Source of the DNA: an uncultured bacterium | GTDB lineage: Bacteria > Patescibacteriota > Minisyncoccia > Phycocordibacterales > CAIRYW01 | Reading direction: 5' to 3' | Assembly (NCBI GenBank): GCA_903882905.1 | Contig: CAIRYW010000004.1 | Span: 115,117-172,205, forward strand | DNA length: 57,089 nucleotides | Part shown: piece by piece, positions 12,532 to 47,241 of the stretch | Layout: each line of letters opens with the position of its first letter | Numbering within the stretch: position 1 is the first letter of the stretch | Notes under the pieces: model-generated | What the model was told of the DNA's origin: nothing | The model's input: only the letters and a program-made list of their open reading frames with translations | Database searches by the model: none | Made by a program: the position numbers and the translations under genes

Positions 12532-12720
12532 TTTTTGAACGCAGTGAAAAACTGCGGGAAAGAAGCAAATAATTTTGCTTCTTTCATGGACTCGAAGCCC
12601 GATTGAGATAATTTATGAGGGACGAAATAAATTATCCAATTGCGGGTATTGAAGCTGTAAGCTTCGAGATTCCAAGTCCAGTATGAAAATTTTTAGTCGA
12701 GGAAGAGACTCCAAGTCCTA
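12525..12720 (+). repeat. tRNA-Gln 3' hairpin plus variant tRNA-linked element with T-arm-complementary and T-arm-like segments
   Basis: Hairpin cccgcagttttt/aaaaactgcggg starts inside the acceptor 3' strand. ggactcgaa (rc of T-loop ttcgagtcc) lies at 12588-12596. An 18-bp hairpin spans 12598-12646. Partial tRNA 3' copies are cttcgagattccaagtcc (12662-12679) and gactccaagtcc (12707-12718). Confidence 0.45.
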
Positions 12721-12798
12721 TAAAATTTTTATAAAAAATGCGATACCCTATTCGAGTATCGCTGTTAACGAACATTTACTTTGCAGAGACAGAGCGGG

Positions 12799-29957: not shown

Positions 29958-30044
29958 GCCCAGGTGGCGGAATTGGTAGACGCAATAGACTCAAAATCTA
30001 TCGATCGCAAGGTCATGGGAGTTCGATTCTCCCCTTGGGCACCA
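29958..30044 (+). tRNA. tRNA-Leu (anticodon CAA), CCA encoded
   Basis: Hand-folded. Acceptor gcccagg/cttgggc, anticodon arm ataga-ctCAAaa-tctat, long variable arm, T-arm gggag-ttcgatt-ctccc, ending ACCA. Confidence 0.9.
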
Positions 30045-30180
30045 TAATAAAAAGCTGGTATATTAATACCAGCTTTTTATTATGGTTTCGGGAGAATCGA
30101 AAGACGGAGCACGACTGGCGCGAGTCGGGGTCGCAGAAATTTTCAGCAGAAAATTATCTGTGACCGATTCCCTCCTGGAC
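30041..30180 (+). ncRNA. tRNA-3'-linked structured element, A-type (hairpin + three-way-junction domain)
   Basis: Hairpin 30041-30086. Then gggagaatcgaa / core AGACGGAGCACGACTGGCGCGAGTCGGGGTCGCAG / AT hairpin / CTGTGAC / cgattccc(tcctggac). The core is shared with 3 other copies, with compensatory changes. Confidence 0.5.
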
Positions 30181-31993: not shown

Positions 31994-32080
31994 AGTTCGG
32001 ATATACTAACATATTGGCTTTTTAAAGGCAAAAGCGTAGCATTTATTCCCAAAATATGTTATTTTTTTGTAAGTATTTTT

Positions 32081-32166
32081 GCGCCGATCGCATAGTGGCA
32101 ATTGCAGCGGGCTGTAAACTCGCCGACCTATGGTCTACGGGGGTTCGAGTCCCTCTCGGCGCACCA
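32081..32166 (+). tRNA. tRNA-Tyr (anticodon GTA), long variable arm, CCA encoded
   Basis: Acceptor gcgccga/tcggcgc, anticodon arm gcggg-ctGTAaa-ctcgc, T-arm ggggg-ttcgagt-ccctc, ACCA. Confidence 0.88.
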
Positions 32167-32342
32167 ATAAAAAATACCGGATTCAGTCCGGTATTTTTTA
32201 TTGCCTGTGCTGTTCGAGAGGGACACGAAAGCCGGAGTGCGACGGCGCGAGGCGGGATCGCGAGATTTTTCAACAGAAAAATACTTGTGACCGAGTCCCT
32301 TAAAAAGGTACTGACCCTGTAAGGGTCGAGATTCCATCTCAG
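32165..32342 (+). ncRNA. tRNA-3'-linked structured element, A-type + B-type domains
   Basis: Hairpin 32165-32203. cgagagggacacgaa (rc of the tRNA-Tyr T-arm). A core AGCCGGAGTGCGACGGCGCGAGGCGGGATCGCGAG...CTTGTGAC-cgagtccct. B part cctt-aaa-aagg GTACTGA ccc-tgtaa-ggg tcgagattccatctc. Confidence 0.5.
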
Positions 32343-39946: not shown

Positions 39947-40030
39947 GCCCGAGTGATGAAATTGGTATACATAGAGGACTTAAAATTCTCAGGCCTAAAG
40001 GCCGTGTGGGTTCGACTCCCACCTCGGGCA
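39947..40030 (+). tRNA. tRNA-Leu (anticodon TAA)
   Basis: Acceptor gcccgag/ctcgggc, anticodon arm gagga-ctTAAaa-ttctc, long variable arm, T-arm gtggg-ttcgact-cccac. No encoded CCA (ACCC). Confidence 0.88.
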
Positions 40031-40208
40031 CCCATATTAAAAGCCGTCTTTAAAGACGGCTTTTAATATGGGTTGTGGGAGTCGAAGGTCGGAGCGCGTC
40101 GGCGCGAGACGGGGTCGCGCAAAATTTTAGCAAAAATTTATGCGTGACCGATTCCCTTTTACAAAATATCCAAAAGGTGTACTGATCCTGTAAGGGTCGA
40201 GTTCCCAC
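40031..40208 (+). ncRNA. tRNA-3'-linked structured element, A-type + B-type domains
   Basis: Hairpin 40031-40072. gtgggagtcgaa (exact rc of the tRNA T-loop + 3' T-stem). A core GGTCGGAGCGCGTCGGCGCGAGACGGGGTCGCGC...GCGTGAC-cgattccc. B part cctttt...aaaagg TGTACTGA tcc-tgtaa-ggg tcgagttcccac. Confidence 0.5.
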
Positions 40209-40240
40209 CTGTAATTTGATATAATTAACAAATCAAAATT

Positions 40241-44479: not shown

Positions 44480-44552
44480 CCACCCATAGCTCAGTCGGTA
44501 GAGCAGCTCCCTTTTAAGGAGAGGGTCGTAGGTTCGATTCCTACTGGGTGGA
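44480..44552 (+). tRNA. tRNA-Lys (anticodon TTT)
   Basis: Acceptor ccaccca/tgggtgg, D-arm gctc-agtcggta-gagc, anticodon loop ctTTTaa, T-arm gtagg-ttcgatt-cctac. No encoded CCA. Confidence 0.85.
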
Positions 44553-44588
44553 CAATTTAACAGCGAAGCTGGTAAATTATCCGCCCAA

Positions 44589-44724
44589 GCAAGTGCTACT
44601 AGCACTTGCGAGTAGGAATCGAACGCCTCCGCTATATTTTTTCAGCAGAAAAAATAGCGAGGCGCGTTTTGAGAAATTTTTTTGACGAAAAAAAATTTCT
44701 CAAAAAGATACTCCTACTGGGTTG
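44589..44724 (+). ncRNA. tRNA-3'-linked structured element, variant (after tRNA-Lys)
   Basis: Hairpin gcaagtgct/agcacttgc. gtaggaatcgaac (exact rc of the tRNA-Lys T-arm). Hairpin gcctccgctatatttttt-cagcag-aaaaaatagcgaggc. Hairpin ttttgagaaattttttt-gacg-aaaaaaaatttctcaaaa. Then ctcctactgggt (copy of the tRNA 3' end). Confidence 0.45.
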
Positions 44725-44761
44725 ATTTGAATTTCGTCGAAAAAATTTGCGATTATGAATC

Positions 44762-44843
44762 GGGCGAGTGGCGGAATTGGTATACGCGCTAGTCTTAGGA
44801 ACTAGTTCCGAAAGGATTGGGGGTTCGAGTCCCCCCTCGCCCA
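44762..44843 (+). tRNA. tRNA-Leu (anticodon TAG)
   Basis: Acceptor gggcgag/ctcgccc, anticodon arm ctagt-ctTAGga-actag, variable arm, T-arm ggggg-ttcgagt-ccccc. No encoded CCA. Confidence 0.88.
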
Positions 44844-45013
44844 CATTTAAAAAAAACGCTTTTGAGCGTTTTTTTTGTGGTCGAGAGAAACTGCCGGGTG
44901 GCAGTTTCGTGGGGAACTCGAAAACCTTTTGAGATTTTTCTAAAAGAAAATCCAAAAGGTGTACTGACCCTGTAGGGGTCGAGATTCCCCCTTCACCTGT
45001 GAACATCGTGAAC
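44841..45013 (+). ncRNA. tRNA-3'-linked structured element, B-type with leader hairpin
   Basis: Hairpin 44841-44880. Leader hairpin gaaactgcc-gggt-ggcagtttc. ggggaactcgaa / ccttttg...caaaagg / TGTACTGA / ccc-tgta-ggg / tcgagattccccc. Tail cacctgtgaacatcgtgaac. Confidence 0.5.
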
Positions 45014-46311: not shown

Positions 46312-46540
46312 CATCAGCATACCTAACTAGTTCTGAAAGCCAGCCCATCTGTCCACATTAAAAAAACACCCTCTGGGTGTTTTTTGTTGGGCGGGGAGAA
46401 ACTGCTGGATGGCAGTTTCGCGGGGGACTCGAAAACCTTTTGAGATTATTTTGTGAGTTAGCGAAACAAAATATCCAAAAGGTGTACTGCTCCTGTAAGG
46501 AGAGAGATTTTCCTCTCGCCCACCTGTGAACGTTGTGAAT
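46312..46540 (+). ncRNA. Decayed tRNA-Leu-like 3' remnant (R1) + hairpin + B-type structured element
   Basis: R1 shares aactagttcYgaaag and gYccaca with tRNA-Leu(TAG). Hairpin 46353-46390. Leader hairpin gaaactgc/gcagtttc. gggggactcgaa (exact rc of the tRNA-Leu(TAG) T-arm). ccttttg...caaaagg, TGTACTG, ctcc-tgtaa-ggag, then ttttcctctcgcccac and cacctgtgaacgttgtgaa. Confidence 0.5.
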
Positions 46541-46631
46541 GTTATTACGATATAACAGACTACTTGACTAGAAATAATTTTAGTGTTTATATTGAACCTG
46601 AACAATTTACCTCTTTGAAAGGTCTAATTTT

Positions 46632-46805
46632 ATGACACAACACATCGTAATTGGAATACTCCTTTGTTGGACTATTCTGGGTTTAATCATTGACCCTCTG
46701 TTGCTTGGCAGTTCCTGGATAACTTCTTCACGGACGCGCGAAGTTGCAGTGCTAATACTTGGAGGACCAGTAACTTGGTTCCTTGCATTTGCTCAATGGT
46801 TTTAA
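46632..46805 (+). CDS. Small membrane protein (57 aa)
   Basis: Below the ORF-track cutoff. My translation is MTQHIVIGILLCWTILGLIIDPLLLGSSWITSSRTREVAVLILGGPVTWFLAFAQWF, with two hydrophobic helices. gaaagg lies 12 nt upstream. Confidence 0.4.
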   Translation: MTQHIVIGILLCWTILGLIIDPLLLGSSWITSSRTREVAVLILGGPVTWFLAFAQWF

Positions 46806-46908
46806 AACAAGACAACTCTAAAGTTCGACCTCGTTGCTTACGCGATGAGGTCATTTTTATAACAGACAAGTTTTAATATTTTCTAAATCTTTTATACTAA
46901 TTCTTACC

Positions 46909-47167
46909 GCATCAGCATACCCAACAAGTTCTGAAAGCCAGCCCAACGGTCCACATTAAAAAAACACCCTCTGGGTGTTTTTTTTGTGAGCGAGGAGAAA
47001 GCTCTGGGAGAGCTTTCGTGGGGACTCGAAGGCCGGAGCGCGACGGCGCGAGGCGGGCGAGTAGCAACGAGTGTCGGAGTAGGCTTCGCAGAAATTTTTA
47101 CCACAAGGGTACTTCTGTTTTTTGTAAACAAAAACAAGTCGCGCAAAAAATTATCTGTGACCGAGTC
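46909..47167 (+). ncRNA. Decayed tRNA-Leu-like 3' remnant (R2) + hairpin + A-type structured element (expanded)
   Basis: R2 is about 90% identical to R1 over about 45 nt. Hairpin 46951-46988. Leader hairpin gaaagctc/gagctttc (compensated relative to the other copies). ggggactcgaa + GGCCGGAGCGCGACGGCGCGAGGCGGG core with extra internal hairpins, ending CTGTGAC-cgagtc. Confidence 0.5.
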
Positions 47168-47207
47168 TTTTTTTGCAAAATTTATTTAGGACTGGATTAT
47201 TTTTCAC

Positions 47208-47241
47208 CCTGTGGATAAACACCTATAGGTCGGTCCTTGGG
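47208..47241 (+). repeat. 34-nt direct repeat copy 1 containing a perfect DnaA box (tgtggataa) and palindrome ataggtcggtcc
   Basis: cctgtggataaacacctataggtcggtccttggg is identical to 48325-48358. Confidence 0.8.

What the first reader, a model, noticed from the sequence alone, without database searches (positions are those of the whole stretch)
30041..30180. Unrecognised structured element attached to tRNA 3' ends (A-type domain): four copies with compensatory substitutions
Directly after tRNA-Leu(CAA) comes a 20-bp A/T hairpin whose 5' arm begins inside the ACCA end (accataataaaaagctggta / taccagctttttattatggt). It is followed by gggagaatcgaa-AGACGGAGCACGACTGGCGCGAGTCGGGGTCGCAG-[A/T hairpin]-CTGTGAC-cgattccc.

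The same core recurs after tRNA-Tyr (32213-32300), after tRNA-Leu(TAA) (40075-40156) and at 47020-47167.

Between copies:
- A short helix gNc...gN'c reads gAc/gTc, gCc/gGc, gTc/gAc, gCc/gGc.
- A second helix reads gtcgcAG/CTgtgac, gtcgcGC/GCgtgac, tcgcgAG/CTtgtga.
- The distal A/T hairpin (loops cagcag, caacag, tagc) varies freely.
- The joints (GGAG, GAG, GGGG) stay fixed.

Fixed joints plus covarying helices suggest a selected fold (RNA or folded ssDNA) rather than decaying junk. I cannot place it in any class I know (tRNA, tmRNA, RNase P, SRP, 6S, group I/II cores, small ribozymes).
Basis: seen in the sequence. Interest (0 to 1): 0.85.

Follow-up and report, generated by a model that had tools for sequence, protein, structure and literature searches.

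The report
New folded RNA module behind tRNAs
A previously undescribed, highly conserved ~66-nucleotide three-armed RNA fold sits just behind tRNA genes in many Patescibacteria (CPR bacteria). It is held in a stem copied from the neighbouring tRNA's own 3' half, and it is gained, lost and swapped like a mobile cassette.

Summary
The core occurs four times in the window: 30099-30165, 32227-32292, 40084-40149, and 47028-47161 with a large insertion. No Rfam family matches it.

The same core, almost letter for letter, occurs in more than 100 low-G+C contigs. Every named one is Patescibacteria.

Across 56 distinct copies:
- 97% of cells pair.
- Nine P3 pairs and one P2 pair show double-sided changes.
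- One G·U pair and one bulged A are invariant.
- G·U outnumbers A·C by 90 to 10, so the + strand fold is what is selected.

New anatomy found here:
- The closing stem P1 has a 5' arm ("antiX") that is a Watson-Crick inverted copy of the adjacent tRNA's T-loop, T-stem and acceptor 3' strand.
- Its 3' arm (X2) is a direct repeat that starts exactly at T-loop C56.
- 45 of 83 well-flanked copies lie less than 160 nt behind a same-strand tRNA, and none lies behind an antisense one.
- Copies also follow tmRNA and lie next to 5S rRNA.
- Orthologous loci differ: empty, A head or B head.

Best reading: a new structured RNA module carried in tRNA trailers that behaves like a mobile cassette. Its biochemical role (ribozyme, ligand or protein binder, or tRNA-maturation switch) is unresolved.

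The parts
29958..30044 (+). tRNA-Leu(CAA). Its 3' half X1 (T-loop to CCA, 30022-30044) is the template of the flanks of copy 1.
   Evidence: ARAGORN and Rfam tRNA; sequence.
30041..30086 (+). A/T-rich hairpin with a T run (terminator-like). Its 5' arm starts in the ACCA end of the tRNA: 30041-30060 pairs with 30067-30086.
   Evidence: Read from the sequence. The simple terminator scan did not flag it.
30090..30101 (+). antiX of copy 1. gggagaatcgaa is the exact reverse complement of tRNA 30022-30033 (T-loop plus T-stem 3' strand). It forms the 5' arm of closing stem P1.
   Evidence: 12/12 complementary.
30099..30165 (+). A-type core, copy 1: J1/2 GAAAG; P2a gac/gtc; internal loop GGAG/A; P2b with ACUGG loop; J2/3 GGG; P3 with invariant G·U, bulged A30156 and loop CAGCAG; ends GUGAC.
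   Evidence: Covariance model R1, 76.7 bits; MFE fold, z = -3.47.
30165..30175 (+). X2 of copy 1. cgattccctcc is a decayed direct repeat of the tRNA from T-loop C56 onward. It forms the 3' arm of P1.
32081..32166 (+). tRNA-Tyr(GTA), host of copy 2.
32216..32229 (+). antiX of copy 2. gagagggacacgaa is complementary at 13/14 positions to the tRNA-Tyr segment ttcgagtccctctc.
32227..32292 (+). A-type core, copy 2.
   Evidence: R1, 82.3 bits; fold z = -4.62.
32292..32299 (+). X2 of copy 2 (cgagtccc). It is followed by a B-type head and a second tRNA-like 3' piece (32307-32340).
39947..40032 (+). tRNA-Leu(TAA), host of copy 3.
40075..40086 (+). antiX of copy 3. gtgggagtcgaa is complementary at 12/12 positions to the tRNA segment ttcgactcccac.
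40084..40149 (+). A-type core, copy 3.
   Evidence: R1, 86.5 bits; fold z = -4.70.
40149..40156 (+). X2 of copy 3 (cgattccc). It is followed by a B-type head and a second 3' piece, tcgagttcccacc (40176-40209).
46995..47030 (+). H0 hairpin (46995-47017) plus the antiX-like segment ggggactcgaa of copy 4. No tRNA body lies upstream, only a decayed copy of a tRNA-Leu(TAG)-like 3' end plus terminator (46910-46987).
47028..47167 (+). A-type core, copy 4. P2 is canonical. P3 is interrupted by about 70 nt of extra hairpins and ends GUGAC at 47157-47161. X2 (cgagtc, 47162-47167) is followed by a T run.
   Evidence: R1, 38 bits over the 5' half; sequence; the fold is not better than shuffles.

Best explanation
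**What it is.** A new family of structured RNA. The unit is a ~66-nt three-way-junction 'head':
- P2 is a GC clamp capped by an NCGG loop.
- P3 is a long stem with an invariant G·U, a bulged A and an ANYA loop.
- The joints GGAG/A and GGG are purine-rich and fixed.

The head sits at the tip of a stem (P1) that is not part of the module. P1 is copied from the host gene. Its 5' arm (antiX) is a Watson-Crick inverted copy of the neighbouring tRNA's 3' half. Its 3' arm (X2) is a direct repeat of that 3' half, starting at T-loop C56 immediately after GUGAC.

**How I think it works.**
1. It is transcribed on the tRNA strand as part of the tRNA (or tmRNA) trailer. This is inferred from strict strand and position bias.
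2. The + strand RNA folds into the junction. This is shown by covariation and G·U bias.
3. The two conserved tips and the purine joints form a compact fold that binds a partner or catalyses a reaction. This is inferred. Tip-swapped variants support a tip-to-tip contact.
4. antiX can pair either with X2 (closing the head) or with the live tRNA 3' half X1 (extending the trailer hairpin into the tRNA). The module is therefore physically coupled to the fate of the tRNA precursor. The complementarity is shown; any consequence is inferred.
5. Over evolutionary time heads are gained, lost, swapped, nested and tandemly repeated at stable-RNA genes without any enzyme gene nearby. The module thus behaves as a non-autonomous mobile cassette. 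It probably spreads by recombination or template switching at the palindromic T-loop (TTCGAA), and hairpin-templated correction keeps antiX matched to the tRNA. The turnover is shown; the mechanism is inferred.
For: **Fold**
- 97.2% of cells pair. Ten pairs show double-sided changes. 0/500 shuffles reach the covariation score, and pairing collapses when partners are slid.
- The G·U at columns 34-62 is present in 56/56 copies and A57 is invariant.
- G·U:A·C is 90:10. An extra closing pair covaries: CG 40, UA 10, UG 5.
- MFE folds give the same junction, z = -3.5 to -4.7, and the + strand is more stable.
- Tip-swapped variants exist, with ACGG on P3 and AGCA on P2.

**Spread**
- 114 pattern matches lie in low-G+C contigs. 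The named ones are Saccharibacteria, Parcubacteria, Paceibacterota and Nomurabacteria.
- None was found in the phage or plasmid collections.

**Link to tRNA**
- 45/83 well-flanked copies have a same-strand tRNA ending less than 160 nt upstream, and 0 have an antisense one. Fourteen amino-acid specificities are represented.
- One copy follows tmRNA (L183), and copies lie next to 5S rRNA (L004, L076).

**Flanks**
- At positions where the tRNA stems hold G·U or a mismatch, antiX equals the complement of the tRNA 3' strand at 22 of 26 positions. It equals the tRNA 5' strand at 2 of 26.
- Where X1 and X2 differ, antiX follows X1 in 21/24 cases.
- X2 starts at C56 and usually stops at the tRNA 3' end.

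**Turnover**
- The tRNA-Leu(CAA)-miaA locus carries A in the window, L085 and L148, and is empty in L152. tRNA-Trp shows the reverse pattern.
- In genomes whose MiaA is 77-80% identical, the same locus carries a B head (L243, L245), a tip-swapped A (L244) or a degenerate A-like unit (L242).
- Nested, tandem and truncated copies occur.
- No neighbouring protein recurs.
Against: - There is no direct evidence of transcription or processing.
- About half of the trailer hairpins look like intrinsic terminators that would stop RNA polymerase before antiX, and no convincing promoter was found.
- The two 5S-linked copies are antisense to 5S.
- Some copies sit in partial host-gene copies upstream of the intact gene (L213, L200, L211, L193), and one follows topA (L153). 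The link to tRNA trailers is therefore not absolute.
- Three paralogues in one genome differ by compensatory changes. One locus may have kept the head across about 60% protein identity. This fits long-term host-level selection better than a purely selfish element.
- No partner, ligand or catalytic activity is identified.
Confidence: 0.45

Rival explanations
1. Host-beneficial switch on tRNA maturation. The head is an aptamer-like sensor. When it is folded or liganded, P1 (antiX:X2) forms and the tRNA 3' half X1 is free. Otherwise antiX zips onto X1 from the trailer hairpin, unfolds the acceptor and T arms, and diverts the precursor to RNase III or decay. X2 acts as the anti-anti-sequence.
For: - The three-segment logic X1 / antiX / X2 is present at dozens of different tRNAs.
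- antiX is kept complementary to the live tRNA: 91% WC over the inner 10 nt, and 21/24 at sites that discriminate X1 from X2.
- The palindrome X1-trailer-hairpin-antiX stays perfect in L244 and L245 although the arm sequences differ, including presence or absence of CCA.
- The head has aptamer-like features: a variable P1, fixed junction purines and two interacting tips.
- Occupancy is high, with 6 of 8 tRNAs in the window carrying a tail.
Against: - In L245-type loci the acceptor part of antiX has no partner in X2, so X2 cannot release it.
- Many copies have terminator-like hairpins before antiX.
- Some copies lack any tRNA (L012, L153, H0-type copies) or are antisense to 5S.
- Orthologous loci are empty or carry another head. 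That would be odd for an essential regulator.
- antiX tracking X1 is equally explained by quasi-palindrome correction without any function.
Confidence: 0.2
2. Ribozyme-based mobile RNA. The head is a new small self-cleaving/ligating ribozyme. antiX acts as a guide that pairs with the 3' half of a tRNA. Transesterification at U55|C56 joins GUGAC-3' to C56...CCA, capturing the tRNA 3' fragment as X2. Reverse transcription and recombination then fix the chimera next to the tRNA gene.
For: - The size, the roughly 30 invariant nucleotides, the variable stems, the tip-to-tip contact and the permuted or tip-swapped variants are the hallmarks of small ribozymes.
- The junction is always exactly GUGAC|C56.
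- X2 stops at the mature tRNA 3' end in 14 of 16 long repeats. In four tRNA-Ser loci X2 carries N-C-C after the discriminator where the gene copy does not.
- Partial 5' copies end at U33/G34, a classical anticodon-nuclease site (L213, L200).
- Copies behind tRNAs are on the tRNA strand without exception upstream (45 same-strand against 0 antisense).
Against: - There is no cleavage assay, and no reverse transcriptase gene nearby.
- How antiX is re-templated for each new tRNA is unexplained.
- Repeats extend past the tRNA end into the trailer in L148 and L204.
- The copy with a repeat of the protein gene's 3' end (L153) and the antisense-5S cases point to DNA-level events.
Confidence: 0.15
3. 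Single-stranded-DNA element, comparable to REP/REPIN or the ends of IS200/IS605. The + strand DNA hairpins are recognition and cleavage sites for a trans-acting HUH/Y1 transposase or a hairpin-specific recombinase. The inverted and direct target copies are by-products of ssDNA integration, as in CTX-phi or integron attC.
For: - The element has no ORF, occurs in many copies, is intergenic and strand-specific, and has conserved mismatches and bulges.
- The layout X1 - spacer - inverted copy - cargo - X2 is what integration of a folded ssDNA hairpin produces. This comparison is from my knowledge of CTX-phi and attC, not a test.
- Antisense-5S and protein-gene contexts fit a DNA event.
- REPIN-like elements can persist with covariation (from memory).
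Against: - A three-way junction with swapped tips, an invariant G·U, and a 3.4-9-fold excess of G·U over A·C are more typical of RNA tertiary folds.
- No transposase or recombinase gene was seen among recurrent neighbours or among the ten window ORFs scanned.
- The target would have to be re-copied into the element at each site.
Confidence: 0.1
4. Scars of integrase-mediated islands. X1/X2 are attL/attR of elements that integrated into the tRNA T-loop, and the head is a conserved arm or small RNA at the island edge. Most of each island has since been deleted.
For: A direct repeat of the tRNA 3' end, running from the T-loop to the end of the gene, is the classical signature of integration into tRNA genes. 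X2 sometimes looks like an older version of the 3' end, with CCA.
Against: - The whole 'island' is only 100-250 nt at dozens of loci, and no integrase gene is nearby.
- The inverted copy antiX is not part of att architecture.
- The core shows RNA-type covariation and is near-identical across phylum-level CPR groups.
Confidence: 0.05

Closest known systems
rtT / tyrT-linked repeats of E. coli (Rfam RF00391)
   Same: Units in a tRNA trailer each carry a copy of the 3' end of the upstream tRNA. They are released from the tRNA precursor (from memory).
   Different: No sequence or structure match. rtT has no inverted copy of the tRNA and no conserved junction fold. It is confined to one locus in enterobacteria. 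The element here occurs at many tRNAs across Patescibacteria.
Small self-cleaving ribozymes (hammerhead, twister, twister-sister, pistol, hatchet)
   Same: Size of 50-70 nt. A three-way junction with a fixed purine-rich core. Variable stems built from local sequence. Tertiary contact between two arms. Multi-copy in variable genomic contexts, often with other small motifs next to it (here the B head).
   Different: No Rfam match at E <= 10. My attempt to thread the hammerhead core failed: CUGUGAC is not CUGANGA, there is no A15.1-U16.1 pair, and the junction lengths differ. No cleavage has been shown.
Three-way-junction riboswitch aptamers (purine type); ACGR-loop hairpins of guanidine-II (mini-ykkC)
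   Same: P1 of free sequence closes a junction with two parallel hairpins whose tips appear to touch. P2 is a GC clamp with an ACGG loop, like one mini-ykkC hairpin (from memory).
   Different: It is not upstream of a regulated ORF. It lies behind tRNAs, often facing a convergent gene. It has only one ACGR hairpin per unit. No Rfam hit.
REP/REPIN and other bacterial MITEs
   Same: No ORF, many copies, intergenic, hairpin-forming, gained and lost between relatives, with nested and tandem copies.
   Different: The terminal 'inverted repeats' are not element sequence but copies of the host tRNA, different at every site. The core is a branched fold with RNA-type covariation. No RAYT-like gene was seen.
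attL/attR duplications of tRNA-integrating islands; folded-ssDNA integration (CTX-phi, integron attC)
   Same: A direct repeat of the tRNA 3' end starts in the T-loop. The layout X1 - spacer - inverted copy - cargo - X2 formally matches integration of a hairpin-folded ssDNA site (from memory).
   Different: The cargo is only a 66-nt RNA-like fold. There is no integrase or Xer-type site. The target differs at each locus.
tRNA-like structures and tRNA scaffolds (mascRNA, viral TLS, YrlA Y RNAs)
   Same: In full-length copies P1 equals acceptor (7 bp) plus T stem (5 bp) of a real tRNA. It has a side hairpin (H0) where the D and anticodon arms branch, and sometimes a CCA end.
   Different: The T loop, which defines the tRNA elbow, is replaced by the head. 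The acceptor part is often missing from X2 (window copies). There is no Rfam YrlA or tRNA hit on the tail.

Membership tests
Any Rfam 15 family (incl. tRNA, tmRNA, hammerhead, twister, pistol, hatchet, HDV-like, group II D5/D6, mini-ykkC, rtT, YrlA, GOLLD/ROOL) | Covariance-model match at or near the family's gathering score | tested here: not met
   No match over 30090-30175, 32216-32300, 40075-40156 or 47020-47167 at gathering score. At E <= 10 there are only chance miRNA/sRNA hits on the A/T hairpin.
Hammerhead ribozyme | Three stems joined by CUGANGA, GAAA (A15.1-U16.1) and UH | tested here: not met
   By eye, the junction strands are GAAAG, GGG and none. CUGUGAC lacks one core base, and the base after P2 is G, not U.
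Group II intron (class IIC, inserted after terminators) | 5' GUGYG, domain V with catalytic triad and GNRA loop, domain VI bulged A 7-8 nt from 3' AY | tested here: not met
   In 'type 2' copies the element starts GUGCGAG, ends GAC and has a bulged A 8 nt from the end. However, GUGC varies with the tRNA end (GUCC after ...GGAC in L212), so it is a copy of the host sequence. There is no D5 and no Rfam Intron_gpII hit.
Decayed tandem copy of the tRNA gene interrupted in its T loop | The 5' arm should be the tRNA's own acceptor and T-stem 5' strands, including its G·U and mismatch positions | tested here: not met
   At 26 diagnostic positions the 5' arm equals the Watson-Crick complement of the 3' strand 22 times and the tRNA 5' strand 2 times. 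It also contains the complement of the T loop and of the discriminator.
Riboswitch / cis-regulatory leader | Located in the 5' UTR of a recurrent class of genes, on the gene's strand | tested here: not met
   Two of the four window copies face a convergent gene. No neighbouring gene family recurs in 114 loci.
Riboswitch / cis-regulatory leader | Conserved aptamer-like junction with a P1 of free sequence | tested here: met
Integrase att duplication at a tRNA gene | Direct repeat of the tRNA 3' end flanking the insert | tested here: met
   X2 repeats X1 from C56. Repeats of 19-38 nt with at most one mismatch occur in 15 loci.
Integrase att duplication at a tRNA gene | Integrase gene and island-sized cargo between the repeats | tested here: not met
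   The insert is 100-250 nt, and no recurrent neighbouring protein was found.
MITE / REPIN-type non-autonomous DNA element | Element-borne terminal inverted repeats and a fixed-length target-site duplication | tested here: not met
   The arms are host-derived and differ at each tRNA. The repeat length ranges from 6 to more than 38 nt.
MITE / REPIN-type non-autonomous DNA element | Multi-copy, with presence/absence polymorphism at orthologous sites | tested here: met
MITE / REPIN-type non-autonomous DNA element | A cognate transposase (for example a RAYT) elsewhere in the genome | not testable with these tools
   No complete genome of a carrier was available to me.
Retron ncRNA | a1/a2 closing stem plus msr/msd hairpins next to a reverse transcriptase gene | tested here: not met
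   The closing-stem-plus-two-hairpin shape is similar, but no RT gene or any other recurrent gene is adjacent.
Guide RNA of an RNA-guided nuclease (IscB/TnpB omega-RNA type) | Guide next to a scaffold, encoded beside the nuclease gene, matching a target elsewhere | tested here: not met
   The flanks match the adjacent gene rather than a distant target. There is no nuclease gene, and the scaffold is only about 55 nt.

The most novel reading that the evidence does not exclude
The A head, and by analogy the neighbouring B head, is a new class of small catalytic RNA that moves at the RNA level. Its 5' flank guides it onto the 3' half of a tRNA or tmRNA. It then transesterifies at U55|C56 and captures the tRNA 3' fragment, ending at the mature CCA end. 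The chimera is copied back into DNA beside the tRNA gene. That would be an RNA-guided 'transposon without a protein' that lives on tRNAs in CPR bacteria. A weaker form of the same reading is a riboswitch-like sensor that decides whether a tRNA precursor folds or is destroyed.
Probability: 0.15. Interest if true: 0.95.

Novelty: categorically new. Interest (0 to 1): 0.82.

Why it matters
- **Gap in knowledge.** Patescibacteria/CPR make up a large share of bacterial diversity, have tiny genomes, and have almost no described non-coding RNAs.
- **Scale of conservation.** This fold has about 30 invariant nucleotides. It is conserved from Saccharibacteria to Paceibacterota, is present several times per tens of kilobases, and is tied to tRNA, tmRNA and 5S genes.
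- **Likely classes.** That degree of conservation in a 66-nt RNA is usually seen only in ribozymes, riboswitch aptamers or protein-recognition sites. Any of the three would be a new class.
- **Unprecedented architecture.** A head carried on a stem made of an inverted plus a direct copy of the host tRNA's 3' half has no precedent that I could find. It raises a concrete, testable question: how is a sequence complementary to each different tRNA generated and then kept matched to it?
- **Annotation.** These tails explain many 'empty' intergenic regions behind CPR tRNAs. They can mislead tRNA, terminator and ORF callers; for example, spurious ORFs of 66-88 aa overlap copies 2 and 4.

Tried and rejected
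1. **Rfam.** Searches at gathering score and at E <= 10 found nothing.
2. **Threading known ribozyme cores.** Hammerhead and HDV-like cores threaded by eye do not fit.
3. **Group II class C intron.** The features (sits after terminators, 5' GUGCG, bulged A, 3' AC) are attractive, but the 5' GUGC simply mirrors the tRNA end. Rejected.
4. **Decayed interrupted tRNA copy.** Rejected by the 22:2 test.
5. **tmRNA, permuted tmRNA or tRNA-like gene.** ARAGORN and Rfam call nothing on the tails.
6. **Riboswitch leader.** There is no gene association.
7. **Retron, guide RNA and integrase island.** There is no enzyme gene.
8. **Promoter and terminator scans around copies 1-3.** Hits are no more frequent than in shuffles, so the scans are uninformative.
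9. **Phage and plasmid collections.** No match. The single viral-contig hit lies in a contig with G+C 0.69. Like the 22 high-G+C metagenome hits, none of which has a tRNA nearby, it looks like a chance match.
10. **Literature.** Four full-text searches ran (minus one that errored), including one on a core sequence string. Nothing relevant was found; one search failed on a term-length error.
11. **Exact-protein look-up of the window's MiaA.** Not on record.
12. **Circular permutation (H0 hairpin replacing P1).** I first thought this explained H0-type copies. I dropped it as a general rule, because many copies have both H0 and P1.
13. **Anticorrelation between long antiX and long X2.** It weakens once gaps or H0 are allowed.
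Full report
**1.

The window carries eight tRNA genes. Immediately behind tRNA-Leu(CAA) (29958-30044) comes an A/T hairpin whose 5' arm begins in the ACCA end (30041-30060 pairs with 30067-30086).

The conserved stretch CGGAG-N6-8-GGCGCGAG-N-CGGG occurs four times, all on the + strand, at 30105, 32233, 40090 and 47034. None is expected in shuffles. Three copies follow tRNA-Leu(CAA), tRNA-Tyr and tRNA-Leu(TAA). The fourth follows a decayed copy of a tRNA 3' end plus terminator and has about 70 nt of extra hairpins inside P3.

Rfam 15 gives nothing over these coordinates at gathering threshold, or at E <= 10.

**2. It is a widespread, strongly selected fold**

One scan of species-representative genomes found the same core, nearly letter for letter. 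The hosts were MAGs named Candidatus Saccharibacteria, Parcubacteria, Paceibacterota, Nomurabacteria and 'Patescibacteria group'. The many high-G+C hits of that GC-rich pattern were chance matches without the rest of the motif.

It produced one hit in viral contigs, in a G+C 0.69 contig. It found nothing in the phage or plasmid collections.

An alignment of 56 distinct cores (66 columns) has 24 invariant columns. On the structure P2a-(GGAG/A loop)-P2b-GGG-P3a-(bulged A)-P3b:
- 97.2% of cells pair.
- Ten pairs have changes on both sides.
- No shuffle out of 500 reaches the observed covariation score.
- Pairing falls to 31-54% when the 3' partners are slid.

The middle pair of P2a is C-G, A-U or U-A. 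The distal half of P3 is A/U-rich in low-G+C genomes and G/C-rich in higher-G+C ones, with the same geometry. A G·U at columns 34-62 is present in 56/56 copies, and A57 is always bulged.

The 'hexaloop' is really a covarying closing pair (C-G 40, U-A 10, U·G 5) around an ANYA tetraloop, AGCA in 35. The P2 loop is NCGG, ACGG in 40.

G·U/U·G pairs outnumber A·C/C·A by 90:10, or 34:10 without the invariant pair. The + strand folds 4-11 kcal/mol better than the - strand, and independent MFE prediction gives the same three-way junction at z = -3.5 to -4.7. The selected object is therefore the + strand single strand, most simply RNA.

A relaxed motif search also found variants in which the two tips are exchanged. 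In these the GC clamp with ACGG sits on P3 and the AGCA loop sits on a long P2 (L085:221, L156:301, L173:5538). This is what one expects if the two tips touch.

A covariance model built from foreign copies recovers exactly the four window copies. In 326 kb of related contigs it finds 31 canonical copies (66-93 bits) and about 20 variant or partial ones.

**3.

The flanks are not element sequence. The 12 nt before the core of copy 1 (gggagaatcgaa) are the exact reverse complement of the neighbouring tRNA's T-loop plus T-stem 3' strand. The same holds for copy 3 (12/12) and copy 2 (13/14).

Across 53 tRNA-linked copies the general layout is as follows:
- tRNA ... X1
- a hairpin, terminator-like in about half the cases
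- antiX
- GAAAG
- the core, ending in GUGAC
- X2

X1 is the tRNA 3' half. antiX is its inverted copy, 10-21 nt long. X2 is a direct repeat of X1 that begins exactly at T-loop C56.

A second layout ('type 2') uses the last bases of the tRNA plus trailer instead: ...GCAC-AAUUG-hairpin-CAAUU-GUGC-GAG-core-CAC-AAU.

An optional hairpin, H0, sits between the acceptor part and the T part of antiX. That is where the D and anticodon arms branch in a tRNA.

Three tests define the flanks.
- **Source of antiX.** At positions where a tRNA stem holds G·U or a mismatch, antiX equals the Watson-Crick complement of the 3' strand 22 times out of 26. It equals the tRNA's own 5' strand twice. antiX is therefore an inverted copy, not the remnant of a second tRNA gene.
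- **Which copy antiX follows.** Where X1 and X2 differ, antiX pairs with X1, the live tRNA, in 21 of 24 cases. Over the inner 10 nt it is 91% Watson-Crick to X1 and 71% to X2.
- **Extent of X2.** X2 stops within 0-5 nt of the tRNA 3' end in 14 of the 16 longest repeats. Two run 12 and 18 nt further. In four tRNA-Ser loci whose gene lacks CCA, X2 nevertheless carries N-C-C after the discriminator.

**4. Genomic behaviour**

Of 83 low-G+C copies with at least 200 nt on each side:
- 45 have a same-strand tRNA ending less than 160 nt upstream, and none has an antisense one.
- 14 amino-acid specificities are represented.

Other hosts and contexts:
- One copy follows tmRNA (L183).
- Copies lie next to 5S rRNA, with the core antisense to 5S (L004, L076).
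- A few copies lie inside partial 5' copies of a tRNA, in the D loop or T loop, upstream of the intact gene. Two of these partial copies end at U33/G34.
- One copy follows topA, with a repeat of at least 41 nt of the gene's end.
- Units can be tandem (L051, L202), nested (L140, L170) or truncated (L062).

No protein family recurs within 2.5 kb. The window neighbours are housekeeping genes: ParB, MiaA, ClpB, IF-2 and FemAB.

Orthologous loci differ:
- tRNA-Leu(CAA)-miaA carries an A head in the window, L085 and L148. In L152 the tRNA is followed after 3 nt by the miaA start codon.
- tRNA-Trp has an A head in L152, L172 and L190 but not in the window or L085.
- In four genomes whose MiaA is 77-80% identical to the window's, the Leu(CAA) locus keeps the scaffold (hairpin, antiX acceptor part, H0, antiX T part). 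The head differs: B type (L243, L245), tip-swapped A plus other hairpins (L244), or a degenerate A-like unit (L242).

Heads are thus interchangeable cassettes on a tRNA-derived scaffold. Between L244 and L245 the long palindrome X1-trailer-hairpin-antiX stays perfect although both arms changed, including presence or absence of CCA.

**5. What it most likely is**

*Shown.* This is a new + strand RNA-type fold under strong purifying selection. It is specific to Patescibacteria and multi-copy. It is tied by strand and position to stable-RNA genes. It is closed by host-derived inverted and direct repeats, and it turns over like a mobile cassette.

*Inferred.*
- It is transcribed with the tRNA.
- The head binds a partner or is catalytic.
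- antiX can switch between X2 and the live tRNA 3' half.
- Spread and maintenance use recombination or template switching at the palindromic T-loop, together with hairpin-templated correction.

I give this composite reading 0.45.

*Rivals.*
- A host switch on tRNA maturation (0.2). It explains the three-segment logic. It is weakened by empty orthologous sites, by copies without a tRNA, and by antiX acceptor parts that have no X2 partner.
- A ribozyme-based mobile RNA that captures tRNA 3' halves (0.15). It explains the exact GUGAC|C56 junction and the repeat ending at the mature 3' end. It has no direct support, and the DNA-type contexts count against it.
- An ssDNA element of the REPIN, IS200 or attC type (0.1).
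- Integrase scars (0.05).

**6. Comparison with known systems**

The nearest analogies are listed below. Each shares one or two features, and each fails on at least one defining feature that I could test (see the membership table).
- rtT repeats behind E. coli tyrT
- small self-cleaving ribozymes
- three-way-junction aptamers
- REPINs and MITEs
- att duplications
- tRNA-like scaffolds

I found no description in Rfam or in the searchable literature.

**7. Limits**

There are no expression data, no complete carrier genome and no biochemical test. The seed alignment was gathered with patterns that fix parts of P2b and the P3 base, so conservation there is partly ascertainment. The covariation evidence rests on the free positions and on the relaxed search. 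Tests that align antiX to X1 lean slightly towards X1.

Noticed in passing
window 32307-32340, 40176-40209, 44957-44990, 46478-46520; related tail at 12533-12735: A second conserved head ('B type', GGUGUACUGAYCCUGUAAGGRUCGAG followed by a T-stem-like piece) sits on the same kind of tRNA-derived scaffold. It occurs alone (behind tRNA-Leu(TAG) and tRNA-Gln) or after an A head (copies 2 and 3). It replaces the A head at the orthologous Leu(CAA) locus in L243 and L245.
   Followed up: partly
window 44480-44553: ARAGORN calls a suppressor tRNA, 'Stop(tta)'. The anticodon loop reads CUUUUAA, so it looks like an ordinary tRNA-Lys(UUU) with a G·A at the top of the anticodon stem, read one base out of register.
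   Followed up: no
window 44554-44725: The trailer of that tRNA holds several parts in order. First comes an inverted copy of its T-loop and T-stem (gagtaggaatcgaa). Then a hairpin with the same AUUUUUUCAGCAGAAAAAAU tip as A-type P3 but without P2, then a second A/T hairpin. Last comes a copy of the tRNA 3' end (ctcctactgggttga). This is a third kind of head on the same scaffold.
   Followed up: partly
window 44820-45000, 46312-46530, 46910-47170: One block occurs three times within 2.5 kb. It consists of a tRNA-Leu(TAG)-like 3' end, a terminator, an H0 hairpin, g(g)gggactcgaa and a head. Only the first copy is attached to a real tRNA. The heads differ (B, B, A with insertion).
   Followed up: partly
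window 46540-46900: About 360 nt between two tail blocks have no ORF of 100 aa or more and no Rfam hit. A short + strand reading frame starting near 46633 is possible. Not examined.
   Followed up: no
L140 and L170 (metagenome loci), about 150 nt before and after the core: Nested double units inside a single P1. The order is antiX, a P2-like hairpin (GGAA...GAG), GGG, an H0 hairpin with loop GAAYACAUGRA, AAGG, a canonical A core, a second P3-like hairpin, then X2.
   Followed up: no
L153 (metagenome locus), around the core: An A core lies directly after the stop codon of a topoisomerase I gene. It is followed by a repeat of at least 41 nt of the gene's 3' end. P1 is made of aguuuucg/cgaaaacu. 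The same flank logic therefore applies to a protein gene.
   Followed up: no
L004 and L076 (genome loci), 5S rRNA 3' flank: The A core with an H0 hairpin lies antisense to 5S rRNA at the end of the rRNA operon, inside a partial duplicate of the (antisense) 5S sequence. The 23S gene of L076 spans 3.9 kb against a 2.9 kb model, so it carries about 1 kb of insertions.
   Followed up: partly
L001, L071, L152, L166, L167, L172, L190 (tRNA-Ser and tRNA-Trp trailers): Trailers of different tRNAs in different lineages share one design, (G)CAAUGAUC-hairpin-GAUCAUU-GCG-antiX. Part of the 'trailer' may therefore travel with the element rather than belong to the tRNA locus.
   Followed up: no
window 32056-32322 (+), 46986-47189 (+), 47018-47218 (+): Mechanical ORFs of 66-88 aa run through copies 2 and 4. 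They are almost certainly artefacts of the G+C-rich core in an A/T-rich genome and could be mis-annotated as genes.
   Followed up: no
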